From the IMG/VR virus record IMGVR_UViG_3300020428_001187, positions 4,245 to 68,244 of that record: a stretch of DNA of 64,000 nucleotides. One strand, 5' to 3'. This document shows positions 1 to 18,443 of the stretch, piece by piece (within the stretch, counting starts at the first letter, position 1; each line of letters opens with the position of its first letter). The position numbers were made by a program, and so were the translations under genes. The stretch is from a virus. The notes below the pieces were generated by a model. That model saw only the letters and a list, made by a program, of their open reading frames with translations, did not search any database and was not told where the DNA came from.

Positions 1-1044
1 AAAGGTATTTCAAGTAAGCGTCTATGGGAAACTGAAGAATGGAAACAACGTGTAGACTTTGATCAACTCATTGCTAGTACAAAAGAAGATGGTACTGCAC
101 CTGTAAGTATTCCTTACTTTGATTTACGTTTAGGTAACCTATGTCAACTTAAATGCGTTATGTGTAGTCCACATGATAGTTCAAGTTGGATTAAGGAATG
201 GAAACTACAAATGCCACAGTATAAGAATAAAGATCTTATTGCAGATCAAGGTTGGGACGATCAATTTGATTATACTTGGTATAAAAAAGGATCCTTCATA
301 GATACAATGAAGCATCAAGCATTTAATATACAAGAATTATATTTTGCAGGTGGCGAGCCATTGTTAATACCAGAACATTATAAAATATTAGAGTTCATGG
401 TTGACGAAGGATATGCCAAAGACTGTAACTTAAGATATAACTCAAATGGTTTAGAATTGCCAGACAAGTTATTTAAGTTATGGCAACATTTTAAAGAAGT
501 ACGTTTTAACTTTAGCATAGATGCTTACGGAGAACGTAACGATTACATACGTTACCCAAGCAAGTGGTCGGACGTTGAAACTAATTTAAGAAGGCTAGAT
601 GAGAATACAAAGGATAATACAGTTATTAATATTGCCTGTGCAGTACAATTACTAAATGTAGGTTACATAGATGAATTAGCTGAATGGAAAATGGATCAAG
701 GCTTTAGCAAGATTAATCCTTCAATGTTTGGAGGAGGTATTATAGGAACACATTTGGTTTATTTGCCATCATATCTAAATGTACAAGTTTTACCACAGGA
801 AGCAAAACTTTGGATAAAGGGCAAAGTAGAAAACTTCATAGATAGACAGAAGTTTAATTTGGAATTCAACCAGCACCCATATGGTGCTCAACGTTGGAGA
901 GGGTTGATTAAATACATGATGCAGGACGATTGGAGTAATAAGCTACCGGCTTTGCGTGAGTATTTGGCTGTAACTGATAAAACTAGAGGGACTGATTATA
1001 GCAAAACTTTTAAAGAATTAGGAGAATATATTAATGGACATTAA
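1..1044 (+). CDS. Radical SAM protein (5'-truncated by window edge)
   Basis: Frame open from base 1; LRLGNLCQLKCVMC (CxxxCxxC), YFAGGEP, YNSNG, SIDA..YIRYP motifs. Confidence 0.9.
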   Translation, partial: KGISSKRLWETEEWKQRVDFDQLIASTKEDGTAPVSIPYFDLRLGNLCQLKCVMCSPHDSSSWIKEWKLQMPQYKNKDLIADQGWDDQFDYTWYKKGSFIDTMKHQAFNIQELYFAGGEPLLIPEHYKILEFMVDEGYAKDCNLRYNSNGLELPDKLFKLWQHFKEVRFNFSIDAYGERNDYIRYPSKWSDVETNLRRLDENTKDNTVINIACAVQLLNVGYIDELAEWKMDQGFSKINPSMFGGGIIGTHLVYLPSYLNVQVLPQEAKLWIKGKVENFIDRQKFNLEFNQHPYGAQRWRGLIKYMMQDDWSNKLPALREYLAVTDKTRGTDYSKTFKELGEYINGH

Positions 1045-1681
1045 TAGAGCGATGCTATGGAACGGACTTACTAATTTAGGTGATACAGTTAAACTTAAAT
1101 TAAAAGTTGATCCATGGGAATGTGTACGAGATTTAGAACAGTTTAAGGATAACTGGTGCCCGTACAATGTTAAGAAAGATAAAGTTAACAATAGATGGGG
1201 ATTACCTATAACAAGCCATAGTGGTGATGTGATGGATAATTATCATCTGAATAGTTTTGGTCATATGCAACGTTATCATGATGTTGAAATGAAAGAAGAA
1301 AACTTCACAACTCCTACTGAAGTATATCATAAGATGCCTGAACTAGCAAAACTTGTTGATGTATTTTCACCAGACATTGGGCGTGTTCATTTATTACGTG
1401 TTGACCAAGGAGGATTCTTTCCTCCACATAGAGATTGGCCAGGAGCAGATCCAGAATACTTTAGATTGCTTATGGTAATGGGAAATTGTAAACCTGAGAA
1501 CTTTGTTCATATGCTTGACGGTAAGCCTATGTATCCAGATCCAGGATTTTTATATTTTATTAACTTTCAAAAAGATCATAGTGTGTTTAGTTTTAGTGAC
1601 GGGCTATATGCTTTAATTTTAACAGTTAAGTTAAATGAACGTACACACGATCTTATTATAAAACATAGTATGAGTGAGTAA
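1034..1681 (+). CDS. AspH-like 2OG/Fe(II) oxygenase
   Basis: FPPHRD (HxD) and distal H (KDHSV) in a jelly-roll pattern. Confidence 0.75.
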   Translation: MDINRAMLWNGLTNLGDTVKLKLKVDPWECVRDLEQFKDNWCPYNVKKDKVNNRWGLPITSHSGDVMDNYHLNSFGHMQRYHDVEMKEENFTTPTEVYHKMPELAKLVDVFSPDIGRVHLLRVDQGGFFPPHRDWPGADPEYFRLLMVMGNCKPENFVHMLDGKPMYPDPGFLYFINFQKDHSVFSFSDGLYALILTVKLNERTHDLIIKHSMSE

Positions 1682-2619
1682 TGAAACTAGGCTACAAGGA
1701 CATTACAAAGAACGATTGGTTTTTAGTTAGTTGGACACTATCTAATAAATGTAACTATCGTTGTGAGTATTGTCCAGACATACTACATAATGGTAGTACA
1801 GGACAGCCACGTTGGGAAACTGTAGAACGTTTTATAAAAAATTTAAAAGTAAAAAAGGATATTTGTTTTAGAATAAGTGGCGGCGAACCTACATACTGGA
1901 AACATTTTATTGACATGGCCGAATGTGTTAAAGAACAAGGACATAAGTTTTCATTTGTAAGTAACGGTAGTCAAAGTCCGGAATACTTTAAACGTATTGC
2001 TCCTTTCACAGATGCTATGATGTTAAGTTATCATAAAGCATACGCAGACCCAGAGCATTTTATAAAGGTTATTAATGAATCTAAAATTACAACAGTAATT
2101 AATATGATGTTGTTACCAGATGATTTCGATGAAGCATTTAGTATATCAGAAAAAATCTTTAGTAGTACAGCTAACGCAACAATATGGCCAAAGGTAATTG
2201 TTGATAAAACGTATAGCGATAACATTACAAATGAAGTAGTTACTTACACAGACAAACAAAAGGATCTAATAAAAAATTGGCCTTTTACTAGAAAGATTGA
2301 TGATAAAGATGTACACAGAGGAAAGATGCAATTAAAACTTAATGATTGGTTTGAAGATGCTAAAGACGTTGACGCTAATGAACTTATACTAGAAGGCAAG
2401 AATAAGTTTGTAGGTTGGAAATGTTGGGCTGGCATAGATGGTGTCAATATAGATATGTGGGGTAATATGTATAGAGCAGACTGCCAATTCGGAGGAGCAA
2501 TAGGTAACTTGGAAAGATATAAATTGCCTACAGAACCTATAGTTTGTGGTAAGAGTATATGCAGTTGTTTAAGCGACATATACATAAGGAAGGAACAGGA
2601 CGAATGGAAGATAACGTAG
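1681..2619 (+). CDS. Radical SAM protein with C-terminal Cys-rich (twitch/SPASM-like) region
   Basis: CNYRCEYC, ISGGEPT, C-terminal CWAG...C...C.C. Confidence 0.9.
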   Translation: MKLGYKDITKNDWFLVSWTLSNKCNYRCEYCPDILHNGSTGQPRWETVERFIKNLKVKKDICFRISGGEPTYWKHFIDMAECVKEQGHKFSFVSNGSQSPEYFKRIAPFTDAMMLSYHKAYADPEHFIKVINESKITTVINMMLLPDDFDEAFSISEKIFSSTANATIWPKVIVDKTYSDNITNEVVTYTDKQKDLIKNWPFTRKIDDKDVHRGKMQLKLNDWFEDAKDVDANELILEGKNKFVGWKCWAGIDGVNIDMWGNMYRADCQFGGAIGNLERYKLPTEPIVCGKSICSCLSDIYIRKEQDEWKIT

Positions 2620-2801
2620 CACTTGCTGAAGGAATGAATCAAATCTGGAACTGGCTCTGCGGTGTCTGTGGTTGGAGAGGTGTAGCACAGGATCTAGCAA
2701 CAGATGATAACACAGATGAATGGTGGGTATGTCCTAAATGCAATAGCACAAATATTCAAGACATAGGTTGGCATAAAGGAAATAACAAACATCATGAGTA
2801 G
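2604..2801 (+). CDS. Small zinc-ribbon protein
   Basis: CGVCGW...CPKCNS; ATG at 2604 follows AGGA. Confidence 0.6.
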   Translation: MEDNVALAEGMNQIWNWLCGVCGWRGVAQDLATDDNTDEWWVCPKCNSTNIQDIGWHKGNNKHHE

Positions 2802-3348
2802 AATATTAGTAACAGGAAATCCTAACTATGAAGGTTTATGCAAAGGTATTTACGAAGCATACAATAACAATAGGGTAGAATTCATAGGACGTCATAATGG
2901 CTGGGATATGAATGACGCAGAAAAAGTTGCCAACCATGCGAAAGACTTTGATGTATTTGTAAACAGCTTGTATGGTCCAGATGGACAACAGAATAGAATA
3001 CTAGAAGAAGTTTATAAAAAGTTTGAAAGAGGACACATAATAAACATAAGCAGTACTAGTTCTTATTGGGAATCAGGTTATAGTCCTCAAAATTACATTG
3101 ACAATAAAACATTATTAGACGGGTTGAGTAAGAAAATGAGTAATGATAGTTGTTGGGGTAACAGCGAAATAAAAGTTAGTAATATAGCATTTGGACAATT
3201 AAGTTCACAGAGTCAAAAAGAAAGAAAAGACAATAGGAATAAGATTAGTTTACAACAAGCTGGACAGTTTGTTAAGTGGGTAATTGATAGTCCTACAGAT
3301 ATTAATATTCATTATATGGCAATGGATCCTATACAAAAAGATCAGTAA
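2794..3348 (+). CDS. Short SDR-like Rossmann oxidoreductase
   Basis: ILVTG, DVFVNS, IINISS, YxxxK (YIDNK). Confidence 0.75.
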   Translation: MSRILVTGNPNYEGLCKGIYEAYNNNRVEFIGRHNGWDMNDAEKVANHAKDFDVFVNSLYGPDGQQNRILEEVYKKFERGHIINISSTSSYWESGYSPQNYIDNKTLLDGLSKKMSNDSCWGNSEIKVSNIAFGQLSSQSQKERKDNRNKISLQQAGQFVKWVIDSPTDINIHYMAMDPIQKDQ

Positions 3349-4447
3349 GTTCCGGACAATGATCTAAAACATTTGTATCTCTAATTTTATCTAAATCTTT
3401 AGTATAGTTTACAAACGTATCTAATAGTTTACTATCGTTATTTGTATAGTTTATATTAGGAAATCTAAAATCAATCTTATCAAGTATCTTATTAGGTAAA
3501 ACTCTTGGATTCAAATATGCAGGAGTGGCTACTACATTATTAAAATATATTTCCCAGTTGTCTTTTTTATTTTCTTCAAACCACCAATGTATTTTATCTA
3601 AGTGTGAGATATTATATGCCATCACAGTTACAGCAATAATGATCCTATCAAAGTCATATTGTTTTAGATTTTCATTGAGCTGTTCAAATGTAAAGTTCTT
3701 ACCACCTCTAATGTATTCGTATAAGCTACCAGTACCTTCTAAACTTACTGTCCATTTAGTTTCGCCAAAGTGTCTAGCAAGTTCCTGTACTTCTTCATCA
3801 ACGATCGTACCATTCGTTGTCCAGTCAAGTGTAACATTTTTTGCAACTCCTAAGTCAATAAACTTCTGCAATATCTTTTTGTTTGCAGGTTCCATGTAAG
3901 GTTCTCCACCTTTAATACTTAGATAACGTAAGTTCATAAATGGTGTAGGATCCTCAAATAATCTTTGAATAATTTCTTCACTTTTATTAGTATAACCAAA
4001 TTCAGGATGATCTACTGGGCGTTGGTAGTCTGCTGATATTTCAGCTAATTTCTTTTCTTCTTTGACCCAAGCACTTGAACTAATACCATTACACATACGG
4101 CATTTTAGGTTACAGATATTACTCATATTAAACTCCAAAAATAGTATGTCTGTGAAGTTTTTGGAGTAATCGTACTCCTTGTTTTCAACCATTGGATTAA
4201 GTATATCACGGAAGAATAAACGCCTACTATGACCCACAGATTCTTCTTTTAAAGCACATTGTTCGCACTCGGGTGGTAGTTGACCCATACGCAAAGAATC
4301 TTTAGTGTGCGTTGCTGTATAGCTGTTTAAGACGTCATTTAAAGACGATTTAAGCACGTTTCCATAGCGAGCCTTGTATACTCCGTCCGGTACTATATCA
4401 CCGTTAAAACGTACCAAAATACTATGCCATGGTGCTAGACATTTCAT
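3329..4447 (-). CDS. Radical SAM protein with N-terminal twitch-like domain
   Basis: N-terminal CLAPW...CEQC; CNLKCRMC; IKGGEP; TTNGT. Confidence 0.9.
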   Translation of the reverse strand: MKCLAPWHSILVRFNGDIVPDGVYKARYGNVLKSSLNDVLNSYTATHTKDSLRMGQLPPECEQCALKEESVGHSRRLFFRDILNPMVENKEYDYSKNFTDILFLEFNMSNICNLKCRMCNGISSSAWVKEEKKLAEISADYQRPVDHPEFGYTNKSEEIIQRLFEDPTPFMNLRYLSIKGGEPYMEPANKKILQKFIDLGVAKNVTLDWTTNGTIVDEEVQELARHFGETKWTVSLEGTGSLYEYIRGGKNFTFEQLNENLKQYDFDRIIIAVTVMAYNISHLDKIHWWFEENKKDNWEIYFNNVVATPAYLNPRVLPNKILDKIDFRFPNINYTNNDSKLLDTFVNYTKDLDKIRDTNVLDHCPELTDLFV

Positions 4448-5583
4448 ATTTTGGTAACCTCATGTATCCTTAACCATTCATCTATTGTAACCAAACTATG
4501 GGTATTATCAATTGTGTTGAAAACCAAGGTATAAAGTTTTTCTTTATATATAATAGGTCTTCCAAACAACTTTGAGTTGTCCGTTTTTGTTGCATGAAAC
4601 GTACCATCTGTTGCTACACTTATAATAGGTAAGCCTGGAGTTCCACTAGGCAAAAATATTGCTCTGCCTTTATATGCAATACCGCATTTAAATCTGTACT
4701 TGCCACCGTAGCCTATTTCAATATCAAAAGGTCTACTCTGTTTTGTTACTGTATCAAACACAACACCGTACTTACTTTCAAAGTCATCTCCGTCACCATA
4801 TGGTACACCAATAATAGTTTCGTCAACTAACACTTGAGCATTATATTTTTTAGCAAAGTCTGGAACGTTTAGTTCGTGTGTAGATACACTATTGTATTCT
4901 GTATTAAATTCTACAACCTGAGTAAGTCCTGCTGTTTCACCATATGGTAAACTGTATAACGTATCTCCTACTGGAATTAAATCTGTAAACTTTCTACTTA
5001 AAGTATGGTCAACAGGTATTGGATACTTCTCTATATCCTTGCCGTCATAACTTACTAATACATTATAGTTTCTAAAGTCACCTCTAGGCATACTCCAATA
5101 TCTTCCATTACAGTATGCAGTACCCATATGACTCTTTCTCATTTCAGCATCAAAGTCTTGTGTATGCAATCCTTTTTCATCAATGTATAGTAAAAAAGAT
5201 GTGTTAGAAGTTCCTAAAGGAAAACTACAAGCAGTAGTTCCGTTAGAAGCACAACCATAAAATTGTCCCATACCGCCTTTGTCTAGTGTATGGTATATAG
5301 GTGTAGTACCTTTTAACTCTACTACTGTTCTAAACTCGTCCCAATAGCCATATGGAATTAACCAAGTGCTATCATTAACTCTTGCAGTAGCATTAATTTT
5401 ACTTGTAACAGGAGGTAAATCTAAATCTATATAGGAAACGGAATCCCCAAAAACTGCCACCTTACTATAATCTTTACAAAGCTCAGTTGCAAAGGGTGGA
5501 GATATTAATTCACCATCATGCTCTGCTAATAACAAATGCTTAATGTCTAGTTCTCTATAATGATCTTCAAATGCTTTATACAT
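4444..5583 (-). CDS. Repeat (probable beta-propeller) protein
   Basis: About 7 repeats of a hydrophobic-P-[YFRL]-G motif (LIPYG, SMPRG, SLPYG, GVPYG); paralogue of the neighbouring gene. Confidence 0.6.
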   Translation of the reverse strand: MYKAFEDHYRELDIKHLLLAEHDGELISPPFATELCKDYSKVAVFGDSVSYIDLDLPPVTSKINATARVNDSTWLIPYGYWDEFRTVVELKGTTPIYHTLDKGGMGQFYGCASNGTTACSFPLGTSNTSFLLYIDEKGLHTQDFDAEMRKSHMGTAYCNGRYWSMPRGDFRNYNVLVSYDGKDIEKYPIPVDHTLSRKFTDLIPVGDTLYSLPYGETAGLTQVVEFNTEYNSVSTHELNVPDFAKKYNAQVLVDETIIGVPYGDGDDFESKYGVVFDTVTKQSRPFDIEIGYGGKYRFKCGIAYKGRAIFLPSGTPGLPIISVATDGTFHATKTDNSKLFGRPIIYKEKLYTLVFNTIDNTHSLVTIDEWLRIHEVTKI

Positions 5584-6808: not shown

Positions 6809-7244
6809 AAGAACCTCCAAATGCAGATTTTAAATCTTTTTCTATCTTGGTGTTAATCTCTTCAGGGGAATAAATGCCTACGTTATCCCAATCAACTAGA
6901 TAAGTGTTATCTCCGTCAATCATTATATTACTTAATACCCAATCGTAGTGTGCATAAGGCAATGTTTGTTCAAGTGTCTCATGACAGAAATCGTGTATTC
7001 TTTTTATAAACTGAGGAGTGTGTGCGAATGTATTTGCAGGAGTGCCTGGCACAATATGATAGTCTATGTACATACTGTTTTCTGTCTTGCCATAATCTAA
7101 AACATATCCAGGAATAACATCTTCAAGTATAGTTACGTGTTCTTCTAAACGATCCATATCTATATCATACCAAACTTTACGATATCTATCTTCAAGTTTA
7201 TAAACTTCTCTATTCTTTTCTAAATTTTTCTTAATCAAGTCCAT
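6789..7244 (-). CDS. Small APH/choline-kinase-like phosphotransferase
   Basis: HYDWVLSNIM (HxDxxxxN) and LVDWD motifs. Confidence 0.7.
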   Translation of the reverse strand: MDLIKKNLEKNREVYKLEDRYRKVWYDIDMDRLEEHVTILEDVIPGYVLDYGKTENSMYIDYHIVPGTPANTFAHTPQFIKRIHDFCHETLEQTLPYAHYDWVLSNIMIDGDNTYLVDWDNVGIYSPEEINTKIEKDLKSAFGGSYDPTSI

Positions 7245-9286: not shown

Positions 9287-9290
9287 ACTG

Positions 9291-9330: not shown

Positions 9331-9338
9331 AATAAATA
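9331..9338 (+). promoter_or_regulatory. T4-type late promoter (AATAAATA), leaderless arrangement
   Basis: AATAAATA-TGTGT-ATG(9344), no SD. Confidence 0.65.
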
Positions 9339-9343
9339 TGTGT

Positions 9344-12147: not shown

Positions 12148-12889
12148 TTTAGAATATTTAAATAGCAAGGATTGGGATATAATAGAATTAGATTGGAATC
12201 TTGATTCTTTATTCTTACAAAGCTGGTATGAGCAAGTACATGAGCAATACAATCATCTATATTTTAGTTGGCGTAAAGAAGAATATTTAAAAGAGAAATA
12301 TCATTTAAAAAACATAGACACAGCATTTGCAGGAGAAGTAGGATCAGAAGGCAGAGGTGTACATGATGAAGGGTATCATATAATAAAATATATTAAGGAT
12401 CAATTAGAAATACCAGAAGAAATATTAGTAATGGAGATCAGTTGGTATTGCGAAAAGGAAATTCCTTGTACTCCTAAATGGGCAGGAAGAGAAGACCTAT
12501 ATCCAGAACTAATTAATCCAGGTGAAAAATCTGTTCAGGAAAAGTTTAAGTTCGGATACTTTAAAAAATTATATGATCAACTAGGTGAAGCTGTATGGAG
12601 AGATACAAGTATTAGACATCATCAACCTGGTGTTGTATTAGGAAAACACATCGACGGGCCAGACGTACAACGATTGCACATACCAGTAGACAGTGATCCA
12701 AATGCTTTATTCTTGTACGGAGAAAATTTAGAAAGAGAATATAACATGAAGCCAGGCAAGGCTTATGTAATTAATGCCGCTATTCCACATGGTACAATTA
12801 ATAAAAGTAAAGAAAGTAGGGTGCATATACAAACAAAACCTACACACGAAAACTTATTAAAGATACTTAACAAGGAAATAACTTTATGA
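12137..12889 (+). CDS. AspH-like 2OG/Fe(II) oxygenase
   Basis: KHID, RLHIPV, PHGTIN, RVH; start reassigned to ATG 12137. Confidence 0.85.
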   Translation: MTYSLEYLNSKDWDIIELDWNLDSLFLQSWYEQVHEQYNHLYFSWRKEEYLKEKYHLKNIDTAFAGEVGSEGRGVHDEGYHIIKYIKDQLEIPEEILVMEISWYCEKEIPCTPKWAGREDLYPELINPGEKSVQEKFKFGYFKKLYDQLGEAVWRDTSIRHHQPGVVLGKHIDGPDVQRLHIPVDSDPNALFLYGENLEREYNMKPGKAYVINAAIPHGTINKSKESRVHIQTKPTHENLLKILNKEITL

Positions 12890-13467
12890 ACGTAGCGATA
12901 ACAGGTAGTAGAAAAGGAATTAGACATTCGGGTAGTTACATACTCAATTGGCTACATGACTATTTTGCCAAGTTATCTAAGTACCAAGGTTATAATGTAA
13001 CGCAATTAAGCAGAGAAACAGGGTATGATTTTAATGAAAACTTTGACGATATTGTAAATGAAATATTAAAAAATGATGTGTTTGTTAATGCTAGTTGCAT
13101 AGACGACTATCAAATAAAACTTTTAAATGCAGTATACGGTAAAGTAAAACATATTATTTGTATAGGTAGTATTGCTGGAGACTTTAATACTGACGAAGAT
13201 TATGCTAGAGTAAAACGCAATCTAAAGCAAAGATGTAAGATGCTACCTATTGAAACATTAAATACACATACGAATCTATTTCACATGACAATAAGCGAAG
13301 TAGAAAAAGACGGTAAAGGAATGAGTCAAGAAGAGTTTAACAAAGTGCTAGACTTTTGGTTTGAAAATCCTACAATAGCAAATATTGACTTTAAGCATTA
13401 TGTTGAAAGTTATGATGATTGGAAGAAAGAAAAAATAAAAAGGATAGTAGATGAACAGAGATCTTAG
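12886..13467 (+). CDS. Short SDR-like Rossmann oxidoreductase
   Basis: VAITG, DVFVNA, IICIGS, YARVK. Confidence 0.7.
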   Translation: MNVAITGSRKGIRHSGSYILNWLHDYFAKLSKYQGYNVTQLSRETGYDFNENFDDIVNEILKNDVFVNASCIDDYQIKLLNAVYGKVKHIICIGSIAGDFNTDEDYARVKRNLKQRCKMLPIETLNTHTNLFHMTISEVEKDGKGMSQEEFNKVLDFWFENPTIANIDFKHYVESYDDWKKEKIKRIVDEQRS

Positions 13468-14041
13468 AGTACTAAAGCCTAGAATAGATATAAACGAGTT
13501 ACGAAACTTCTTTATAAGTCTCCAGCATGACCATAATGATATGAGGTGGGTATGGGAAGGCAATGAAGAAGAAGGAGTTGGTGGACATAAACTTAAAGGA
13601 GTAACCGGTTGGGCATTACAAAGTAATCTAGAAGATCTAACTAAACCTTGTCCTCCTTATAATATCACTAAAGAAGAAAAACAGGAATATAAAGATACTA
13701 AATGTATGTTTGGATTAGCAAAGAAGTTACAGGAAAAGTTTCCGTTCGCACATCAGTTTAGTGTAAGTGTACACCCGCCAGGAGCATTAATAAACTTTCA
13801 CAAGGATACTGATGATTATCTAAAGGTGCATATTCCTATAGTAACTAACAAGAAAGCATATTTTACGTTTGAACCTAATAGGAAATACGTATTACCTGCT
13901 GATGGGCGTATGACTCTTGTTAATACTAGCATACCACATGGTACACATAATGAAGGCGAAACAGATAGAGTTCATTTGTTTTTTAAAGTTCCTAAAGACA
14001 AGGAAATGGAATTGCTTAAATACAAAGAGGAAACACTATGA
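13451..14041 (+). CDS. AspH-like 2OG/Fe(II) oxygenase
   Basis: FHKD, KVHIPI, PHGTHN, RVH. Confidence 0.85.
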   Translation: MNRDLRVLKPRIDINELRNFFISLQHDHNDMRWVWEGNEEEGVGGHKLKGVTGWALQSNLEDLTKPCPPYNITKEEKQEYKDTKCMFGLAKKLQEKFPFAHQFSVSVHPPGALINFHKDTDDYLKVHIPIVTNKKAYFTFEPNRKYVLPADGRMTLVNTSIPHGTHNEGETDRVHLFFKVPKDKEMELLKYKEETL

Positions 14042-14742
14042 TAATCAAAAATTACGATCCTAAAGACATTGGTTGGAAAATGCTATATGAAGAAGATCAT
14101 TGGGGAGCGATAGAATTAAATTTAGATCTTGATGTAGATAAACTACAAAAGTATTACTCTGATGTAAAGAAAAAATTTAATCATATGTATTTTGATTTCT
14201 ATAACTTTCCTGATAGATTAAATGTTGAAGTTAGTAAACAATATATGGACTTAGGTTATTGTGGTTACTACTGCGGTCCTATTAGTGGATACACACTAGC
14301 ATGGCCAAAAGAAAGATACGAACCATTACCTCCTCCTAGTCAAGCTAATACAGATATGTTTCCTGAAACACTTGACCCAGAATTTTATGATAAGTGTAAT
14401 ATATTGCCTAAGTATCGTTTTGATTATATGAATGATTTAATCGAAATGCTAGGAGAAGAAAGTTTTAAACAATGTATAATCACAGTACACGGTCCTGGTG
14501 CAGAAATTAAAACACATAAAGATAGTAGTGTAAAGAAATTACATATACCTTTAGAAACAAACGAAGAAGCAGTTTTTTGTTTTGGAAAAGATAGAGAAGT
14601 AAAGTATAATATGAAAGTTGGCAAAGTTTACATATTAAATACCAATGCTTACCATGGAACAGAAAATCCAGGTAAAACTGATAGAGCTCACTTTTTAACT
14701 AGAGTAGACGAAACTAAAATTTTAGATATATTAGCATTATGA
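14038..14742 (+). CDS. AspH-like 2OG/Fe(II) oxygenase
   Basis: THKD, KLHIPL, YHGTEN, RAH. Confidence 0.85.
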   Translation: MIIKNYDPKDIGWKMLYEEDHWGAIELNLDLDVDKLQKYYSDVKKKFNHMYFDFYNFPDRLNVEVSKQYMDLGYCGYYCGPISGYTLAWPKERYEPLPPPSQANTDMFPETLDPEFYDKCNILPKYRFDYMNDLIEMLGEESFKQCIITVHGPGAEIKTHKDSSVKKLHIPLETNEEAVFCFGKDREVKYNMKVGKVYILNTNAYHGTENPGKTDRAHFLTRVDETKILDILAL

Positions 14743-15845
14743 AAATAACAATAGTAGGTGGTGGAACAGCTGGTTGGATGACTGCAAGTTATCTTGCAAA
14801 GAAAACTGATTGGAACATCACTGTAATACAAAGTGAAGATATTCCTATAATAGGTGTAGGCGAAAGCACGTTGCCTAGTATGTACGACTTTATTACAGAA
14901 CTAGGACTAACAGAACAAGACCTATTTGACCATTGTGATGCAGTAAGAAAATATACAATATGTCATAAGGATTGGCACAACAAAGAATGGTGGCACCATT
15001 TCTGCTTTGATGAGTCTGAACATAGAGAACAGATTGAATGGATGCGTAATTATACAAAGCCTACTAAAAAGTGGCGTCATGCTTATCATGTTGATGCTAA
15101 CAAGTTTGGTATTATGCTGAGAGATAAGGTTGCACTACCAAACGGTGTAGAACTTATTAATAAAACACTTGATACTATAGACGACCTTGATGCAGATTTA
15201 ATTATTAATTGTGCTGGATTTAGTGATCTGTTTCCTGCAAAAGAAATGATTAAAACTAACCTAAAAAATAATTGTGCCATAGTTGCACCTAGTTACGATA
15301 AGATGTTAAAATACTATACGGAAACTACTGCATTAAGTAACGGGTGGATGTGGAATATTTACTTACAGAATCGCATTGGAAACGGATATGTGTTTAGTAA
15401 AGATCATCAATCAGTAGAAAGTGCCAAAGCAGAATTTATAGAAAAATGTCCTCACAAATTAGAACTAGATAAGTTAAGAGTGATTGAATGGGAAAGTCAA
15501 TATTGTCCTAACCCCTACGAAGGTAACATTTTAAATATAGGATTAAGTGCAGGATTTATTGAACCGTTAGAAGCTCAAGCAATATGGCTAATACAATATC
15601 AAATTGAAATGCTAGTAAGACTAGTGGACAAACCTAGTGTGTATAACAAGCAATGGTTAAACGTAGTAAAACACGTAGAAGAATTCTTAGAACTTCATTA
15701 TACTGCTACAAGTAAAGACACAGACTATTGGAAAAATGAAATGAAAGAAATTGTAATTAAAAAGAAACCTTTTACAATTTTTGATCAATATTCTTATCGC
15801 TCTTTAGCGAGAGGTTACGCTCTTCCTTATAACGTTGAACATTAA
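14739..15845 (+). CDS. Flavin-dependent tryptophan-halogenase-like protein (compact)
   Basis: GGGTAGW, GVGEST, GWMWNI (WxWxI), RIGNGYV, GFIEPLEA. Confidence 0.85.
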   Translation: MKITIVGGGTAGWMTASYLAKKTDWNITVIQSEDIPIIGVGESTLPSMYDFITELGLTEQDLFDHCDAVRKYTICHKDWHNKEWWHHFCFDESEHREQIEWMRNYTKPTKKWRHAYHVDANKFGIMLRDKVALPNGVELINKTLDTIDDLDADLIINCAGFSDLFPAKEMIKTNLKNNCAIVAPSYDKMLKYYTETTALSNGWMWNIYLQNRIGNGYVFSKDHQSVESAKAEFIEKCPHKLELDKLRVIEWESQYCPNPYEGNILNIGLSAGFIEPLEAQAIWLIQYQIEMLVRLVDKPSVYNKQWLNVVKHVEEFLELHYTATSKDTDYWKNEMKEIVIKKKPFTIFDQYSYRSLARGYALPYNVEH

Positions 15846-16344
15846 TACGCCATAAGTTCTGCGGTACATTATATAATTCTATTTGTTGATCTAAAGACCA
15901 AATACCACGTTTAGCTAGTAATGGCATCATAGTATTATTCATACGTTGACTCTTACCACCATCGTCGTTTATATTTGTACTAATAAACAAGTCTGCTGAC
16001 TTAGGTGCCCATTCTATTTGTAAGTTTAGTAAGTAACTTAATTGTATACCTGTCTTAAAAATATCTCTTCCTGTACCTAGTGTGTATCCTGGTAGTTGAG
16101 CTCCGCGGAACAAACATCTATAACAGTTATGTCCAGCTTCAGGCAAGTCATGAATACCTGCAATACTAATAATTTTATCTTCATGAATTGCAACAGTCCA
16201 TGCACCATTGCGTAGGCACCATTCCCATTTCATTGCTTCTAAAGATGTATTGTTTGAATAGTTCTGTGATTTACAAAACTGTTCTACTAAAGGTCTATCT
16301 CTTTCAGTAGCAAGTCTAAAAGTTGTTTTTCCAAGTATGTCCAT
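15772..16344 (-). CDS. GNAT-like acyltransferase
   Basis: N-terminal FRLATERD, beta-strand pattern IISIAG; overlaps the convergent halogenase 3' end. Confidence 0.45.
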   Translation of the reverse strand: MDILGKTTFRLATERDRPLVEQFCKSQNYSNNTSLEAMKWEWCLRNGAWTVAIHEDKIISIAGIHDLPEAGHNCYRCLFRGAQLPGYTLGTGRDIFKTGIQLSYLLNLQIEWAPKSADLFISTNINDDGGKSQRMNNTMMPLLAKRGIWSLDQQIELYNVPQNLWRINVQRYKEERNLSLKSDKNIDQKL

Positions 16345-16993
16345 TTGCTTCTTTTAATCTACCGTGGTATTCTTTTGTGTCCATGTTAAAAATATCACCA
16401 GTTGATCTGCCGTTGATAATACAATGTTGAAGGTTAGTGCCAGTAGCTTGTAATGGCATAAACATCACATGATTCTCTTGATGATTTATAGTGTTGAAAT
16501 CAAATGCAGGTGAATCATAACCTATCATAATTGGTGGAGGAAACTCAGTCATGCCGTACCAGTTCGCGACTTTTTGAACTCCCTTATTTTTAAATTCATC
16601 TATAAAATTTTGGTCTATTTTTGAACTGCCTGTAACCATGTATTTGACGCAACTCATATCCAAATCCTTAAAGCCTTTAGTGCCTAATAACAGTTCTAAA
16701 TGACGTGGTATTAACGCAATATACGTCGGTTTAAAGCGTCTAAATAAGTCGAGGTAGGTGTATGCACTAAAGTTGCTAGAAACGTACTGTGCGCCGCTTA
16801 AAAACGCAGGAACACCGGTGATTGTGTAGTGGGCTATAGTGTTCGCAGGAAACACATCTAGCACTCTATCCTCTTCAGTCAATCCAATTTCTTTAATGCT
16901 TTTGGTCGCACATTTCTTAATATGATCCCACGAATGGGTCACGTCTTTTGGTTGGTCTGTTGACCCTGATGTAAAGAGAGTTATAGAGCTCAT
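16316..16993 (-). CDS. Miniature AMP-binding (ANL adenylation) enzyme
   Basis: FTSGSTDQPK P-loop, WYGMTE, TGD; only 225 aa. Confidence 0.8.
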   Translation of the reverse strand: MSSITLFTSGSTDQPKDVTHSWDHIKKCATKSIKEIGLTEEDRVLDVFPANTIAHYTITGVPAFLSGAQYVSSNFSAYTYLDLFRRFKPTYIALIPRHLELLLGTKGFKDLDMSCVKYMVTGSSKIDQNFIDEFKNKGVQKVANWYGMTEFPPPIMIGYDSPAFDFNTINHQENHVMFMPLQATGTNLQHCIINGRSTGDIFNMDTKEYHGRLKEANGHTWKNNF

Positions 16994-17006: not shown

Positions 17007-17037
17007 TTTAAATTGGTTTGGAAAAGTTAAAGCTGAA

Positions 17038-18408
17038 TTAGTGTAAGTCGACCCAAGCAACACCAGTACGTAATTGTAACTTACTTAATGTAGTATTGTA
17101 AATTACCATACCAGCACTTACTGAAGATAGTCCGTCTCTTTGAGTAGTTGTTAAGTTAGCAAACTTAACTGTACTTGAAAATTGTGCATCACCAACAACA
17201 TCTAAGTTAGCACCTGCAACATCACCTGGAGCACCGTTAACTTTTAAACGTCCTTTTGCATCAAATGACATAGCTTTTAAAACTGGTGAACTTCCTGTTC
17301 CTGCATTACTAATGAATAGTAATTTACCTTTAACTTGGTCTGATGCAACAGTCTCATCTGGATCAACTTGGAATGCCATAACTGCTGATGGAATAAAAGC
17401 ACTTGTATTTGTATCCCATGATTGAGCCGTTAATGCACCATTCCAGTCACCTGCTGTTGGATCTACTGGAGTTACCAATGATCCATGGTAAGCTGAAAAT
17501 GTTAACTTACTTGTATTGTTAACACTTGTTCCTGCCTTGTTGACAAAGTTAATTGGAGCACTTGCATCTGCTGATGTAATTTTAAATGTAGGACCAGCTG
17601 AGTCTGTAGTTTTACCTAGTTTAACTTCTGTTACATTGTTAAGCTCAAGTTGATTCTCAACAAAACTTACAACGCCATTGTTTAGGTTTACTCTACTGTT
17701 GACAGCATCAACTAATACAGTTGAATCGTCACCAACAATAGTACCTTTGAAATTTCCTGTAAATGCTTCTGCATTAATAACAGGAGCACTAATAGTTCCT
17801 GTTGCCGTAATAGCACCGGCGTTTACTGCCTTTGAAGTTGCATTAAAGAAGCTAGTGTTATCAGTTGCATTAACATCACCTTTGAAAGTACCTGAAGCAT
17901 TAATGGCTCCAGTTGCTTTATTTAAAACTACTGTAGAATCATCTGCAACGATATTAGCATTTACTGATCCAGCATTAATATCATCTGTTACGTGTAAAGC
18001 ACCAAAGTAACCAGCACCCCATCTTAGTACACTTGAACCAATGTTCCTTGCACTATCAACGTCTGGTAAAATATGTGATTCAACTTTGGCTGTTAAGTTT
18101 AATGTATCTGATGTAGCATCACCAACAGTTAAGTTACCACCTAGTGTTAAATTACCGTCAGCAGTGATGTTTCCAGTAGCAGTAATATTTCCAGTAATAT
18201 TAACGTTACCTGTTCCAGTTAAGCTATAATTGTTTAAGTCTAAATTTGAACCTAATGCACTACCGGCTGTATCAACGGGATTACCACCCGCAGTAGCACC
18301 GTCACCTATAAACAGTTTTTTAGTATCTGTAGTATAGATTAATTCACCATCAGCTGGCGTTATAAGCCCTCTTTGTGAGTCTGTACCTCTTCTTAGTTTT
18401 AATGCCAT
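17038..18408 (-). CDS. Tail fibre / virion structural protein
   Basis: N-terminal LKLRRGT...GELIYTTDTKKLFIGDG fibre-anchor motif, G/N/T-rich repeats, C-terminal GMVIYNTT; perfect late promoter upstream. Confidence 0.8.
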   Translation of the reverse strand: MALKLRRGTDSQRGLITPADGELIYTTDTKKLFIGDGATAGGNPVDTAGSALGSNLDLNNYSLTGTGNVNITGNITATGNITADGNLTLGGNLTVGDATSDTLNLTAKVESHILPDVDSARNIGSSVLRWGAGYFGALHVTDDINAGSVNANIVADDSTVVLNKATGAINASGTFKGDVNATDNTSFFNATSKAVNAGAITATGTISAPVINAEAFTGNFKGTIVGDDSTVLVDAVNSRVNLNNGVVSFVENQLELNNVTEVKLGKTTDSAGPTFKITSADASAPINFVNKAGTSVNNTSKLTFSAYHGSLVTPVDPTAGDWNGALTAQSWDTNTSAFIPSAVMAFQVDPDETVASDQVKGKLLFISNAGTGSSPVLKAMSFDAKGRLKVNGAPGDVAGANLDVVGDAQFSSTVKFANLTTTQRDGLSSVSAGMVIYNTTLSKLQLRTGVAWVDLH

Positions 18409-18435
18409 TTATATAACTCCTGGATCTGTTATATG

Positions 18436-18443
18436 TATTTATA
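18436..18443 (-). promoter_or_regulatory. T4 late promoter TATAAATA
   Basis: Exact T4 gp55 consensus upstream of the fibre gene, followed by AGGAG SD. Confidence 0.8.

What the first reader, a model, noticed from the sequence alone, without database searches (positions are those of the whole stretch)
1..18443. Late-expressed tailoring-enzyme island beside a tail-fibre gene: candidate virion-decoration pathway
Seen: about 21 consecutive genes (5 radical SAM, 6 AspH-like oxygenases, 2 SDR, halogenase-like, kinase, GNAT, adenylation enzyme, 2 propellers), the complement of a natural-product cluster, in a phage. Three transcription units start at T4-type late motifs (9291, 9331, 16999), and the island abuts a fibre gene with TATAAATA. 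Known: twitch/SPASM rSAM enzymes and AspH oxygenases commonly modify peptides, proteins or glycans. Inference: late timing favours modification of virion proteins, virion glycans or the cell surface over nucleotide supply, which would be a combinatorial post-translational modification system.
Basis: partly seen in the sequence, partly recalled or inferred. Interest (0 to 1): 0.8.

Follow-up and report, generated by a model that had tools for sequence, protein, structure and literature searches.

The report
Enzyme island inside a phage fibre module
A widespread marine giant phage keeps a conserved block of radical-SAM, hydroxylase and sugar-type enzymes wedged between its fibre genes, probably to chemically decorate a late-made (virion) protein, though no one has yet shown what the target is.

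Summary
The gene island is real. All 6 radical-SAM hits of the 68-kb contig lie in it, with five AspH-type oxygenases, a short flavin-halogenase homologue and a truncated adenylating enzyme, and it abuts a fibre-like gene. It runs 4.2 kb past the window's left edge.

The promoter claim is only partly right. The sole exact TATAAATA precedes the fibre gene. The 9331 site belongs to a depleted, start-proximal ATAAATA motif. The 9291 site is a conserved TAAATA. The 16999 site is unsupported.

All 18 related marine viral contigs hold part of the island. They share a conserved core and swap cassettes. All 7 that reach far enough have the fibre gene next to it, and one relative has a collar/gp10-like gene on the other side.

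New here:
- The unknown 496-aa core protein folds as a GT-A-like plus methyltransferase-like protein.
- It is predicted to bind AspH1 (0.81 against 0.02 for controls) and is fused to an AspH domain in three MAG proteins.
- Homologous clusters fill Bdellovibrionota chromosomes.

Best reading (about 0.37): a late, soluble hydroxylate-then-glycosylate pathway acting on a virion protein. Fibre-linked hypervariable enzyme regions in marine T4-like phages are already published, so this is a new variant of a known kind. The substrate is untested.

The parts
1..1044 (+). NTwi1: C-terminal 347 aa of a 437-aa radical-SAM enzyme with an N-terminal twitch domain. The gene starts 270 bp left of the window.
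   Evidence: NF033640 421.8 bits (cut-off 170) on the full gene L007:3975-5288. PF04055 and SPASM. CX3CX2C at 138.
1034..1681 (+). 215-aa unknown protein with an HRD...H motif, a possible sixth oxygenase.
   Evidence: No Pfam or NCBIfam hit. Motif read from the sequence. Homologues in 13 of 18 related loci.
1681..2619 (+). rSAM_B: 312-aa radical-SAM enzyme.
   Evidence: PF04055 47.3 bits. CX3CX2C at 24. Only generic sub-threshold NCBIfam hits.
2559..2801 (+). 80-aa Cys-pair small ORF, a possible Zn-ribbon or rubredoxin-like protein.
   Evidence: Only weak Zn-ribbon hits (E 0.04 or worse). Found in 3 of 18 related loci.
2794..3348 (+). Short (184 aa) SDR-like Rossmann protein.
   Evidence: adh_short E 0.0022, below the cut-off. 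Homologues in 16 of 18 related loci.
3329..4447 (-). NTwi2: N-terminal-twitch radical-SAM enzyme.
   Evidence: NF033640 237.4 bits. CX3CX2C at 112.
4444..5583 (-). 379-aa repeat protein, a possible beta-propeller. Part of a variable cassette.
   Evidence: No family hit. PxG repeats seen in the sequence. Present in 5 of 18 related loci.
5576..6820 (-). About 410-aa repeat protein, a possible beta-propeller. Part of a variable cassette.
   Evidence: Atlas lead to an SMP-30/Reg_prop cluster at 0.91 with 158 shared features. No Pfam hit.
6789..7244 (-). 151-aa APH/choline-kinase-like fragment.
   Evidence: PF01636 E 0.0014, below the cut-off. Homologues in 15 of 18 related loci.
7231..8301 (-). 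NTwi3: N-terminal-twitch radical-SAM enzyme.
   Evidence: NF033640 231.5 bits. CX3CX2C at 108.
8291..9286 (-). rSAM_C: 331-aa radical-SAM/SPASM enzyme, first gene of the minus-strand operon.
   Evidence: PF04055 and SPASM. CX3CX2C at 20, and 58-79% identity in 12 related loci.
9287..9343 (.). Divergent control region. TAAATA (9296-9291, minus strand) lies 4 nt before the rSAM_C ATG. AATAAATA (9331-9338, plus strand) lies 5 nt before the AspH1 ATG at 9344.
   Evidence: Position and spacing are conserved in related loci while the rest of the spacer varies.
9344..10039 (+). AspH1: AspH-type Fe(II)/2OG oxygenase, a core gene.
   Evidence: PF05118 51.5 bits. HxD...H. Predicted to bind the next gene's product.
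10041..11531 (+). u10041: 496-aa core protein with a GT-A-like N-domain and a methyltransferase-like C-domain.
   Evidence: No Pfam hit. AF2 pLDDT 86. Foldseek and VIA matches to GT-A transferases and to MTases. Fused to AspH in 3 MAG proteins.
11494..12147 (+). AspH2 oxygenase, in the variable slot.
   Evidence: PF05118 51.5 bits. HxD...H.
12080..12889 (+). AspH3 oxygenase, in the variable slot.
   Evidence: PF05118 22.8 bits against a cut-off of 22.6. HxD...H.
12886..13467 (+). 193-aa unknown protein with an SDR-like TGxxxG N-terminus.
   Evidence: No family hit. It does not align as an AspH.
13451..14041 (+). AspH4 oxygenase, in the variable slot.
   Evidence: PF05118 36.7 bits. HxD...H.
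14038..14742 (+). AspH5 oxygenase, in the variable slot.
   Evidence: PF05118 37.0 bits. HxD...H.
14739..15845 (+). Short (368 aa) flavin-dependent halogenase homologue.
   Evidence: PF04820 233 bits. Th-Hal 1.8e-39 and VirX1 1.6e-36. It lacks about 70 mid residues and about 100 C-terminal residues of solved halogenases. About 30% identity to cyanomyovirus genes.
15772..16344 (-). 190-aa unknown protein, paired with the adenylating-enzyme fragment.
   Evidence: No family hit. The same pair occurs in L023.
16316..16993 (-). 225-aa ANL (AMP-binding) enzyme that lacks the N-terminal subdomain.
   Evidence: PF00501 67.3 bits, model positions 168-330 of 384. The same short form occurs in L023.
17038..18408 (-). 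456-aa fibre-like protein.
   Evidence: Mtd_N 39.5 bits. Its N-terminal 45 aa match tail-fibre proteins of other phages. 63-64% identical homologues sit next to the island in 6 loci.
18436..18443 (-). TATAAATA late-type promoter motif of the fibre gene, followed by AGGAG.
   Evidence: The only exact match in the window. The motif and leader are identical in 6 of 6 relatives that have the fibre.

Best explanation
The island is the enzyme-rich part of a fibre-linked hypervariable region in an abundant, uncultured marine jumbo phage of the T4 superfamily.

Its conserved core encodes soluble cytoplasmic enzymes:
- at least six radical-SAM enzymes, three of the N-terminal-twitch type;
- a class I methyltransferase;
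- a short SDR-like protein and a kinase-like protein;
- a terminal module in which an AspH-type Fe(II)/2OG oxygenase (AspH1) binds a two-domain protein with a GT-A-like and a methyltransferase-like domain (u10041).

I read the terminal module as a hydroxylate-then-glycosylate(-then-methylate) machine. This is the logic of collagen LH3. The radical-SAM, SDR, kinase and methyltransferase enzymes would tailor the donor sugar or the attached group.

The slot between this module and the fibre gene takes swappable cassettes. Here it holds four more AspH paralogues, a short halogenase and an adenylating enzyme. In a relative it holds TauD, a nucleotidyltransferase and a HAD enzyme. These cassettes would diversify the product.

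The units are read from T4-late-like promoters together with the fibre genes, so the most likely target is a protein made late, namely the adjacent fibre or another virion protein.

Shown: gene content, synteny, motif statistics, folds, fusions, and a complex prediction that passed its controls. Inferred: late timing, sugar chemistry and the identity of the target.
For: (1) Gene families and intact catalytic motifs.

(2) Conserved core with variable cassettes in all 18 related IMG/VR loci. The fibre homologue is adjacent in 7 of the 7 loci that reach past the island. Relative G001 has a Collar/Gp10_C protein on the other flank.

(3) ATAAATA occurs 10 times against 36.6 +/- 5.7 expected, and all 10 lie 5 to 46 nt before a start codon on the coding strand. 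They include the fibre gene, AspH1 and a gene matching virion-structural phrog_12928 at 3.8e-26.
- The fibre promoter is identical in 6 of 6 relatives.
- (A/G)TAAATA plus 5 nt plus ATG before AspH1 is kept in 8 relatives, and with 7 nt in a ninth.
- In G001 and G002 the motif heads the collar operon, and a divergent pair lies inside the island.

(4) u10041: AF2 pLDDT 86.
- The N-domain matches GT-A transferases, including virion-glycosylating viral ones: PBCV-1 A64R, Mimivirus R699 and STIV A197. LH3 also matches. Z is 7.1-8.3, and Foldseek probability reaches 1.0 at E 2.5e-3 or weaker.
- The C-domain is methyltransferase-like (Z 9.2 and 7.0).

(5) AspH and u10041 domains are fused in three MAG proteins, in both orders.

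(6) Complex prediction of u10041 with AspH1: ipSAE 0.81, best of 3 controls 0.02.
- Partner pLDDT is at least 88, and the runs agree in at least 97% of contacts.
- That mark was reached by 58 of 80 solved complexes and 2 of 110 mismatched pairs.
- These counts hold only roughly here, because my own alignments were used.

(7) Sugar-type enzymes recur in the island of this lineage:
- a shortened NDP-sugar dehydrogenase here and a full-length one in G001;
- NTP_transf_3, HAD and TauD in L025's slot;
- a NodS-like class I methyltransferase.

(8) No island enzyme has a predicted membrane segment.

(9) The fibre protein has 17 NxS/T motifs against 7.9 +/- 2.4 in shuffles, with 0 of 2000 shuffles reaching 17. 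This is a lead only.
Against: - No modification of any protein was observed or could be.
- Late timing rests on motif likeness to T4. No gp55, gp33 or gp45 homologue was looked for, and the contig is only 19% of a genome.
- The AMP-ligase unit has no such motif, and the rSAM_C unit has only the TAAATA core.
- The GT-A assignment rests on middling structural scores (Z under about 8.3, Foldseek E no better than 2.5e-3). No DxD motif was identified, and the profile search against PDB sequences found nothing.
- Homologous multi-rSAM clusters with the AspH-u10041 pair sit in Mb-scale Bdellovibrionota chromosomes, and no homologue of this fibre lies within 10 kb of any of the 78 loci. The chemistry therefore has a cellular target somewhere.
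- Hypervariable, enzyme-rich regions beside tail fibres are common in marine T4-like phages. Adjacency may reflect a recombination hot-spot rather than a shared function (PMC7029224; PMC3037559).
- The authors of PMC7029224 favour host O-chain modification.
- The RNA-library contigs that lie on the island give no strand, start or timing.
Confidence: 0.37

Rival explanations
1. Host-surface remodelling. The island makes or alters a host envelope glycan or lipid (O-chain, capsule, lipid hydroxylation), to block superinfection or to stop progeny adsorbing to debris. This is the reading proposed for the 'host recognition cluster' of pelagimyophages.
For: - The published reading for analogous regions that hold glycosyltransferases, UDP-glucose dehydrogenase and radical-SAM cassettes (PMC7029224, passages).
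- NDP-sugar dehydrogenase and nucleotidyltransferase/HAD cassettes.
- The PF05118 family also holds lipid hydroxylases such as LpxO (recalled, not tested).
- In one Bdellovibrionales locus the homologous cluster lies beside a GtrB/ArnC-type polyprenyl-phosphate glycosyltransferase (3.6e-26).
- Cellular homologues exist without the fibre.
Against: - No membrane segment in any island enzyme.
- No flippase, polymerase, initiating transferase or GT-C seen in the phage island by Pfam.
- Late-type motifs fit superinfection exclusion poorly, since that is usually an early function (inference).
- The GtrB neighbour was seen in 1 locus only.
Confidence: 0.22
2. No single pathway. The region is a recombination hot-spot next to the fibre genes that collects unrelated auxiliary metabolic genes (HemC, oxygenases, halogenase, Fe-S enzymes). 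Adjacency to the fibre carries no functional meaning.
For: - Cassette turnover between close relatives.
- HemC, the halogenase and the AMP-ligase are sporadic: HemC in 7 of 18 loci, the halogenase in 0 of 18, the AMP-ligase in 1 of 18.
- Hyperplastic regions rich in host-like genes are documented in cyanomyoviruses (PMC3037559).
- Marine T4-like genomes with 12 radical-SAM genes have been read as Fe-S-related metabolism (PMC5332604).
Against: - A core of about 12 genes keeps its order across relatives whose shared island proteins are 41-100% identical.
- It is partly syntenic with clusters in Bdellovibrionales MAG contigs (L084, L096).
- AspH1 and u10041 are fused elsewhere and are predicted to bind.
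- Operon structure with overlapping stops and starts.
Confidence: 0.2
3. A diffusible product. The island makes a ribosomal peptide or other small natural product, such as a toxin, signal or cofactor, during infection.
For: - The enzyme set (SPASM/twitch radical-SAM enzymes, oxygenases, halogenase, adenylating enzyme, methyltransferases) is typical of natural-product clusters.
- The characterised relative of the halogenase, VirX1, acts on small molecules. This is from the title in a reference list; the content is recalled.
Against: - No precursor-peptide candidate is conserved. The only small ORF, 2559-2801, is in 3 of 18 loci.
- No RRE/PqqD, protease, transporter, carrier-protein or condensation domain was found by Pfam.
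- The three radical-SAM enzymes without an N-terminal twitch domain begin their core within about 30 residues of the N-terminus, leaving no room for a recognition domain.
- The adenylating enzyme is a 225-aa fragment-like form.
Confidence: 0.1
4. DNA hypermodification. The enzymes tailor a nucleotide or the phage DNA.
For: - rSAM_B's weak N-terminal similarity to viperin, NrdG and QueE (47 bits or less, far under the cut-offs).
- A kinase-like protein.
- The neighbouring part of the window is a replication region.
Against: - No base-modifying hallmark was detected (no thymidylate-synthase-like, transglycosylase or DNA glycosyltransferase family).
- Late-type motifs and placement between fibre genes.
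- The similarities are generic radical-SAM core matches.
Confidence: 0.04

Closest known systems
'Host recognition cluster' (HRC) of pelagimyophages, and the hyperplastic region of cyanomyophages (Zaragoza-Solas et al. 2020, PMC7029224; Sullivan et al. 2010, PMC3037559; passages read)
   Same: A large hypervariable region that holds tail-fibre genes plus many enzymes 'seemingly unrelated' to fibres. These include glycosyltransferases, UDP-glucose dehydrogenase and radical-SAM cassettes that differ between close relatives. An aspartyl/asparaginyl beta-hydroxylase is core to all pelagimyophages.
   Different: - A different lineage. The DNA polymerase is nearest the jumbo phages Phosso (50%) and Atu_ph07 (47%), and homologues sit on contigs of up to 365 kb.
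- Here there is a conserved ordered core dominated by N-terminal-twitch radical-SAM paralogues, and an AspH-GT-A/MTase pair. No LPS-type GT8 or other glycosyltransferase family was detected by Pfam.
- Supplementary tables of these papers were not seen, so overlap of genomes cannot be excluded.
Oxygenase/halogenase clusters in the structural module of T4-like cyanophages (for example Synechococcus phage Sf-CH11), and the cyanophage halogenase VirX1
   Same: - The halogenase homologue is about 30% identical.
- In Sf-CH11 it is flanked by P4H and 2OG-Fe(II) oxygenase genes, directly after a structural protein of over 3000 aa and before head-tail genes.
- VirX1 matches at 1.6e-36.
   Different: - The window's protein has 368 aa against 531 for VirX1, and lacks the C-terminal region.
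- The cyanophage clusters have no radical-SAM genes in the stretch shown.
- VirX1's activity is known to me only from a title in a reference list and from recall.
Hydroxylase-glycosyltransferase machines: human LH3 with or without ColGalT1, Mimivirus R699 and (recalled) L230
   Same: A 2OG oxygenase physically coupled to a GT-A domain. LH3 and R699 are among the structural matches of u10041. AspH and u10041 domains are fused in 3 proteins and are predicted to bind.
   Different: The oxygenase here is AspH-type, not lysyl-hydroxylase type. There is an extra methyltransferase-like domain. No sequence similarity to LH3 was found, and substrate and sugar are unknown.
Virion glycosylation in mycobacteriophages (Freeman et al. 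2023) and chloroviruses (PBCV-1 A64R)
   Same: Virus-encoded GT-A enzymes next to structural genes that decorate virion proteins. A64R is a structural match of u10041 (Z 7.1; Foldseek probability 0.98-0.99).
   Different: Those systems use recognisable glycosyltransferases and no radical-SAM or AspH enzymes. The Freeman paper was seen only as an entry in reference lists.
Uncharacterised multi-radical-SAM clusters of Bdellovibrionota
   Same: - 69 of the 78 best genomic loci with N-terminal-twitch rSAM genes carry Bdellovibrionota-type titles.
- Tandem arrays of up to 10 paralogues occur with rSAM_B-like, SPASM-type, methyltransferase, SDR and AspH1-u10041 genes, some on Mb-scale chromosomes.
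- L084 and L096 are syntenic with the phage's left operon.
   Different: - No fibre, halogenase, HemC or AMP-ligase homologue lies within 10 kb.
- Extra PP-loop-like and amidotransferase-like genes were seen by eye.
- No paper on them was found.
- Smaller MAG contigs could be mis-binned mobile elements.

Membership tests
Radical SAM superfamily (PF04055) | Family score over the curated cut-off | tested here: met
   All 6 genes of the contig score 34.4-47.3 bits (cut-off 29.5); 5 of them lie in the window.
Radical SAM superfamily (PF04055) | CX3CX2C cluster motif | tested here: met
   Present once in each of the 6 proteins.
NF033640 N-terminal-twitch radical SAM subfamily | Full-length match over the cut-off (170 bits), with a Cys-rich twitch/SPASM segment before the radical-SAM core | tested here: met
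   421.8, 237.4 and 231.5 bits over model positions 1-5 to 396-397 of 398. The Pfam SPASM hit at residues 3-85 precedes the core in two of the three.
AspH-type Fe(II)/2OG oxygenase (PF05118) | Family score over the cut-off (22.6 bits) | tested here: met
   51.5, 51.5, 22.8, 36.7 and 37.0 bits. The third is marginal.
AspH-type Fe(II)/2OG oxygenase (PF05118) | Metal-binding HxD/E...H residues | tested here: met
   HxD and the distal H align in all five paralogues. H142, D144 and H192 are invariant in the AspH1 family alignment.
AspH-type Fe(II)/2OG oxygenase (PF05118) | Hydroxylation of Asp/Asn in a protein substrate | not testable with these tools
   No assay is possible. The family also acts on other substrates (recalled).
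Flavin-dependent (tryptophan-type) halogenase | Family score, FAD-binding GxGxxG, the catalytic Lys region and the WxWxIP motif | tested here: inconclusive
   PF04820 233 bits. GGGTAGW, an aligned Lys and EPLE are kept, but the motif reads GWMWNIY (P to Y). The roles of these residues are recalled.
Flavin-dependent (tryptophan-type) halogenase | Full-length architecture with the C-terminal substrate-binding region | tested here: not met
   368 aa against 497-554 for the tryptophan-type halogenase matches among solved structures. The alignment ends near residue 420 of the targets, and about 70 mid residues are missing. Short forms also exist in cyanophages (gene lengths in PMC3037559).
GT-A glycosyltransferase (for u10041, N-domain) | GT-A fold | tested here: inconclusive
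   Most of the 50 listed VIA rows are GT-A enzymes aligned to about residues 17-235, at Z 6.5-8.3. The tool warns that Z under 8 can be a common arrangement. Foldseek E 2.5e-3 or weaker.
GT-A glycosyltransferase (for u10041, N-domain) | DxD or equivalent metal and nucleotide-sugar site | not tested
   No canonical DxD was picked out from the invariant columns. No ligand modelling was done.
Class I SAM methyltransferase (for the L007:2540-3145 product) | Rossmann-like methyltransferase fold | tested here: met
   AF2 pLDDT 97. At least 500 Foldseek matches at E 0.001 or better, all 41 listed rows E 4.3e-9 or better, led by NodS at 4e-10 with TM 0.70. The sequence profile search was only weak (E about 0.1).
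T4-type late promoter | TATAAATA about 5 nt upstream of the transcript start | tested here: inconclusive
   An exact motif only at the fibre gene. ATAAATA at AspH1 and TAAATA at rSAM_C. No transcript starts are available. The T4 spacing is recalled.
T4-type late promoter | Dependence on gp55/gp33/clamp, and late timing | not tested
Fibre-linked hypervariable region (HRC) of marine T4-like myophages | Holds fibre genes and differs by cassettes between close relatives | tested here: met
   The definition is from PMC7029224.
Fibre-linked hypervariable region (HRC) of marine T4-like myophages | Membership of the pelagimyophage or cyanomyophage lineages | tested here: not met
   The best DNA-polymerase matches are Phosso (50%), Atu_ph07 (47%) and Rak2-like coliphages (43%). 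There is no near-DNA match to 50,697 phage records.
RiPP biosynthetic cluster | A conserved precursor peptide and a recognition (RRE) domain or protease | tested here: not met
   No such Pfam domain in any island protein. The only small ORF is in 3 of 18 loci. RRE-independent systems are not excluded.

The most novel reading that the evidence does not exclude
AspH1 and u10041 form a hydroxylase-glycosyltransferase-methyltransferase machine that installs a new kind of protein modification. It would hydroxylate a side chain, perhaps Asn or Asp in the N/T-rich repeats of the fibre. It would then attach and methylate a sugar that the N-terminal-twitch radical-SAM paralogues have tailored. The swappable AspH, halogenase and TauD cassettes between this module and the fibre gene would give each phage strain a different virion surface chemistry. 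That would be a combinatorial, late-expressed way to tune adsorption or to escape host recognition. Predatory Bdellovibrionota would use the same toolkit, in expanded arrays, on their own surface or invasion proteins.
Probability: 0.18. Interest if true: 0.85.

Novelty: new variant of a known kind. Interest (0 to 1): 0.62.

Why it matters
This genotype is held almost letter for letter by marine DNA runs of 7 studies from 2013 to 2025. Its radical-SAM family has thousands of metagenomic relatives. Whatever the island does is therefore done at ocean scale.

If the target is a virion protein, this would be the first radical-SAM/oxygenase-based virion decoration system in a phage. It would also offer a new handle on host range.

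If the target is the host envelope, it would specify the chemistry behind the published 'host recognition cluster' idea.

Either way there is now a concrete two-protein module that can be expressed (AspH1 with u10041). There are also cultured bacteria that carry N-terminal-twitch radical-SAM homologues in which to test function.

Tried and rejected
- Near-DNA search of the whole island against 50,697 phage records: no match.
- AspH1 protein against the same records: no match.
- The fibre protein matched other phages only over its first 45 residues or so.
- PHROGs gave nothing for the fibre.
- Lenient Pfam (E up to 5) on ten unknowns gave only noise-level hits.
- Pfam on ten longer proteins that carry the methyltransferase domain: no families.
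- Sequence and profile searches against PDB: nothing for NTwi1 or u10041, and only E 0.003 or weaker 'beta-hydroxylase' hits for the AspH paralogues.
- Sigma-70 promoter and terminator scans were at chance level: 79 found against 85.7 expected, and 8 against 8.2.
- The Mtd_N family was not found in 5 Bdellovibrionota genomes. The control rang nowhere, so this says nothing.
- RNA-library contigs of 4 runs from 3 studies lie on pieces all over window 1-20000. They are contigs. They give no strand, start, level or timing, and DNA carry-over cannot be excluded, so I draw nothing about expression time from them.
- Moraphages (PMC12619734) were checked as a possible identity for the lineage and dropped. 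That paper has no radical-SAM, hydroxylase or halogenase terms.
- Literature searches that found no description of this cluster type.
- My first tblastn rows for rSAM_C used an out-of-frame start at 9287. They were redone with 9286.
- Supplementary tables of PMC7029224 and PMC5332604 were not seen. They might show whether genomes of this lineage were in those studies.

Full report
WHAT THE WINDOW IS

The window is bases 4245-68244 of a 68,244-bp linear IMG/VR viral contig that CheckV rates 19% complete. That implies a genome of roughly 350 kb. G+C is about 35%.

The part to the right of the finding is a replication and auxiliary region, almost all on the minus strand. It holds a T4-type DNA polymerase and an exonuclease. 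The polymerase's best matches are Sinorhizobium phage Phosso (50%), Agrobacterium phage Atu_ph07 (47%) and Rak2-like coliphages (43%). It also holds an ATP-dependent protease and a MoxR-type AAA plus DUF2201 pair. No cultured phage shares DNA with the island.

THE OBSERVATION: GENES

Twenty-two close-packed ORFs fill 1-18408 in four blocks. Family searches confirm the following:
- Five radical-SAM enzymes in the window, and six in the contig. All six PF04055 hits of the contig lie in its first 13.5 kb.
- Every one has CX3CX2C.
- Three belong to NCBIfam NF033640, radical-SAM proteins with an N-terminal twitch domain, at 232-422 bits against a cut-off of 170.
- Five proteins pass PF05118 (AspH type) and keep the HxD...H metal site.
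- The last gene of that operon is a flavin-halogenase homologue (233 bits) of only 368 aa. It lacks about 70 internal and about 100 C-terminal residues of the solved enzymes, including the cyanophage enzyme VirX1.
- The adenylating enzyme is a 225-aa form that starts at the phosphate-binding loop.

The island continues 4.2 kb to the left. That stretch holds another rSAM/SPASM enzyme and a shortened NDP-sugar dehydrogenase. It also holds a hydroxymethylbilane synthase (HemC, 264 bits against a cut-off of 164). A fourth gene there encodes a protein that AlphaFold and Foldseek show to be a class I methyltransferase. Its top match is NodS at 4e-10, with pLDDT 97. In relatives the truncated first ORF is a further radical-SAM gene.

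THE OBSERVATION: PROMOTERS

Exact TATAAATA occurs once in 64 kb, where 10.5 +/- 3.2 are expected. It lies 27 nt before the fibre ATG and is followed by AGGAG.

The 7-mer ATAAATA occurs 10 times in the contig against 36.6 +/- 5.7 expected. All ten lie on the coding strand, 5 to 46 nt before a start codon. They precede:
- the fibre gene;
- a gene matching virion-structural phrog_12928 (3.8e-26), and one matching phrog_14467 weakly;

At AspH1 and at two other genes the ATG follows after exactly 5 nt. By the T4 spacing rule as I recall it, that would put the transcript start on the A of the ATG, giving leaderless mRNA.

In relatives the spacer sequence drifts, but (A/G)TAAATA plus 5 nt plus ATG persists before AspH1, and TAAATA plus 4-5 nt plus ATG persists before rSAM_C.

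TAAATA at that spacing is as over-represented as Shine-Dalgarno-like hexamers. A role in translation rather than transcription cannot be excluded.

The 16999 site is a one-mismatch match of a kind that is commoner by chance than observed, and it is not conserved.

In relatives G001 and G002, ATAAATA heads a 204-aa gene followed by a Collar/Gp10_C gene. A divergent TATAAATA/CATAAATA pair sits inside the left extension of the island.

The motif class is associated with structural genes. Its 'late' character is by analogy with T4 only.

RELATIVES

A scan of IMG/VR with NTwi2 found 18 loci at 55-100% identity. Mapping the island proteins onto them shows three things.

First, there is an ordered core: radical-SAM, rSAM_A, methyltransferase, NTwi1, rSAM_B, SDR-like, NTwi2, kinase-like, NTwi3, rSAM_C, AspH1, u10041.

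Second, some cassettes come and go:
- HemC is in 7 of 18 loci.
- The two repeat proteins are in 5 of 18.
- AspH2 to AspH5 are in a few.
- The halogenase is in none.
- The AMP-ligase pair is in 1.

Third, the variable slot lies between u10041 and the fibre gene. In L025 it holds a TauD dioxygenase, a MobA-like nucleotidyltransferase, a HAD phosphatase and a weak AspH.

In all 7 loci that extend beyond the island, the fibre homologue comes next. It is 63-64% identical in six of them and 37-48% over parts in L019. The same small genes and the DUF2201/AAA pair follow where the sequence extends that far (5 loci). Five relatives' contigs carry 7-8 radical-SAM genes each.

The linkage holds.

THE KEY UNKNOWN

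u10041 is a 496-aa core gene that always follows AspH1. It has no Pfam family and 173 homologues, all at least about 50% identical and confined to this lineage.

Its AlphaFold model has pLDDT 86 and pTM 0.82, and it has two domains.
- Residues about 17-235 match GT-A glycosyltransferases: STIV A197 (Z 8.3), Manic Fringe (8.0), Mimivirus R699 (8.0), LH3/ColGalT1 (7.8) and PBCV-1 A64R (7.1). Foldseek probability reaches 1.0, but E is 2.5e-3 or weaker.
- Residues about 267-489 match methyltransferase-like chains (Z 9.2 and 7.0).

These scores are middling, and I found no DxD motif, so 'GT-A-like' is a fold-level lead.

Three independent observations tie this protein to AspH1.
- Adjacency is constant in the phages, and is seen again in 5 cellular loci.
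- Three MAG proteins fuse the two: 808 aa and 1062 aa as AspH then u10041, and 651 aa as the u10041 N-domain then AspH. An Atlas lead to a 688-aa viral AspH cluster (0.84) points the same way.
- The complex prediction scored 0.81 against 0.02 for the best of three controls. Partner pLDDT was at least 88 and contact agreement at least 97%. That mark is reached by 58 of 80 solved complexes and 2 of 110 mismatched pairs, and these counts are only rough here because I supplied the alignments. The AspH1 C-terminal tail lies on the GT-A-like domain.

An oxygenase bound to a glycosyltransferase is the logic of collagen LH3: hydroxylation creates the acceptor, and the transferase glycosylates it.

CELLULAR COUNTERPARTS

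A scan of one genome per prokaryotic species with an alignment of the twitch paralogues gave 340 confirmed relatives. Of the best 78 loci, 69 carry Bdellovibrionota-type names.

Many sit on Mb-scale chromosomes as tandem arrays. One example has ten paralogues plus AspH-u10041-AspH within 21 kb of a 917-kb contig. Another has seven in a row on a 1.9-Mb chromosome.

Across the 78 loci, homologues were found as follows:
- SPASM-type enzymes in 29-31 loci;
- rSAM_B-like in 32;
- SDR-like in 11;
- the methyltransferase in 10;
- AspH1 in 8;
- u10041 in 5;
- the fibre, halogenase, HemC and AMP-ligase in none.

Two MAG contigs are syntenic with the phage's left operon. One locus lies beside a GtrB/ArnC-type polyprenyl-phosphate glycosyltransferase. 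I found no paper on these clusters.

This shows that the core is an old, shared pathway, not a phage invention. Its substrate cannot be defined by the phage fibre alone.

WHAT IS ALREADY KNOWN

I read only passages of the papers below, not whole texts.
- Zaragoza-Solas et al. (PMC7029224) describe a 'host recognition cluster' in pelagimyophages and cyanomyophages. It is a large hypervariable region with the tail fibres plus glycosyltransferases, UDP-glucose dehydrogenase and radical-SAM cassettes. An Asp/Asn beta-hydroxylase is core to all pelagimyophages. They propose host O-chain modification against co-infection.
- Nishimura et al. (PMC5332604) note a 183-kb marine T4-like genome with 12 radical-SAM genes.
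- Sullivan et al. (PMC3037559) tabulate 2OG-Fe(II) oxygenases and PrnA-like halogenases in cyanomyoviruses.
- In Sf-CH11 the halogenase sits among P4H and 2OG oxygenase genes inside the structural module.

The general phenomenon is therefore in print. The following appear not to be, as far as searches show: the conserved twitch-rSAM core, the AspH-GT-A/MTase module, the late-type motifs and the Bdellovibrionota counterparts. I could not see supplements.

MECHANISM AND ODDS

All island enzymes lack membrane segments. No envelope-assembly component was detected by Pfam.

Given also the fibre and collar flanks, the shared motif class and the hydroxylase-transferase module, I favour decoration of a late-made, probably virion, protein with a tailored sugar, at 0.37. 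The rivals are:
- host-surface remodelling, 0.22;
- an unlinked collection of auxiliary genes at a recombination hot-spot, 0.20;
- a diffusible natural product, 0.10;
- DNA modification, 0.04.

The fibre's excess of NxS/T motifs (17 against 7.9 +/- 2.4) is only a lead.

Marine DNA runs of 7 studies hold the region almost unchanged. Pieces of it occur in RNA libraries of 3 studies, but these give no timing.

VERDICT

This is a new variant of a known kind. It is worth an experiment, because a two-protein module can now be tested directly.

Noticed in passing
L007:3142-3978 (contig bases left of the window): A full-length hydroxymethylbilane synthase (HemC, TIGR00212 263.7 bits against a cut-off of 164) sits inside the phage island, between a methyltransferase and a radical-SAM gene. 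It is present in 7 of 18 related loci. I did not pursue a tetrapyrrole link to the radical-SAM enzymes.
   Followed up: partly
window 47337-47343 and 51914-51920 (minus strand); also 9332-9338 (plus strand): Three ATAAATA motifs are followed after exactly 5 nt by the ATG of a gene. This spacing would give leaderless mRNAs if the T4 late-promoter rule holds.
   Followed up: partly
L030-L107, for example L075, L066, L032: Bdellovibrionota chromosomes carry tandem arrays of up to ten N-terminal-twitch radical-SAM paralogues, with AspH-u10041 pairs and PP-loop-like and amidotransferase-like genes. This looks like an uncharacterised system of predatory bacteria. It may also hint at the origin of the phage genes, or at the host.
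   Followed up: partly
window 8800-18500: This stretch is held at 0.99-1.00 of its sampled 31-mers by 14 marine DNA runs from 7 studies dated 2013-2025. The genotype is therefore nearly invariant and widespread. Some of these runs may be the source sample.
   Followed up: no
window 31732-32913 (minus strand): A single 393-aa ORF joins a DNA endonuclease V-like N-terminal part (phrog_274, 1.3e-23) to a 2OG-Fe(II) oxygenase C-terminal part (phrog_81, 8.7e-29).
   Followed up: no
window 20008-22513 (minus strand): A DUF2201 metallopeptidase/VWA-like protein and a MoxR-type AAA ATPase lie next to each other. They are syntenic with the fibre block in five relatives.
   Followed up: no
L007:1420-2163 and 2160-2540: The NDP-sugar dehydrogenase is 247 aa, covering model positions 74-295 of 413. 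It is followed by a separate 126-aa ORF. The two-ORF arrangement is kept in relatives L013, L014, L024 and L025, whereas relative G001 has a full-length 390-aa gene elsewhere in its island.
   Followed up: partly
window 47340-49295 (minus strand): A 651-aa protein combines a 5'-3' deoxyribonucleotidase-like segment (phrog_2643, 1.5e-24) with a ParB-like C-terminus.
   Followed up: no
window 15772-16993 (minus strand); L023:866-2048: The 225-aa AMP-binding form and the following 190-aa ORF overlap in different frames, by 29 nt here and by 14 nt in L023. This is either a conserved overlapping pair or a frameshifted single gene.
   Followed up: no
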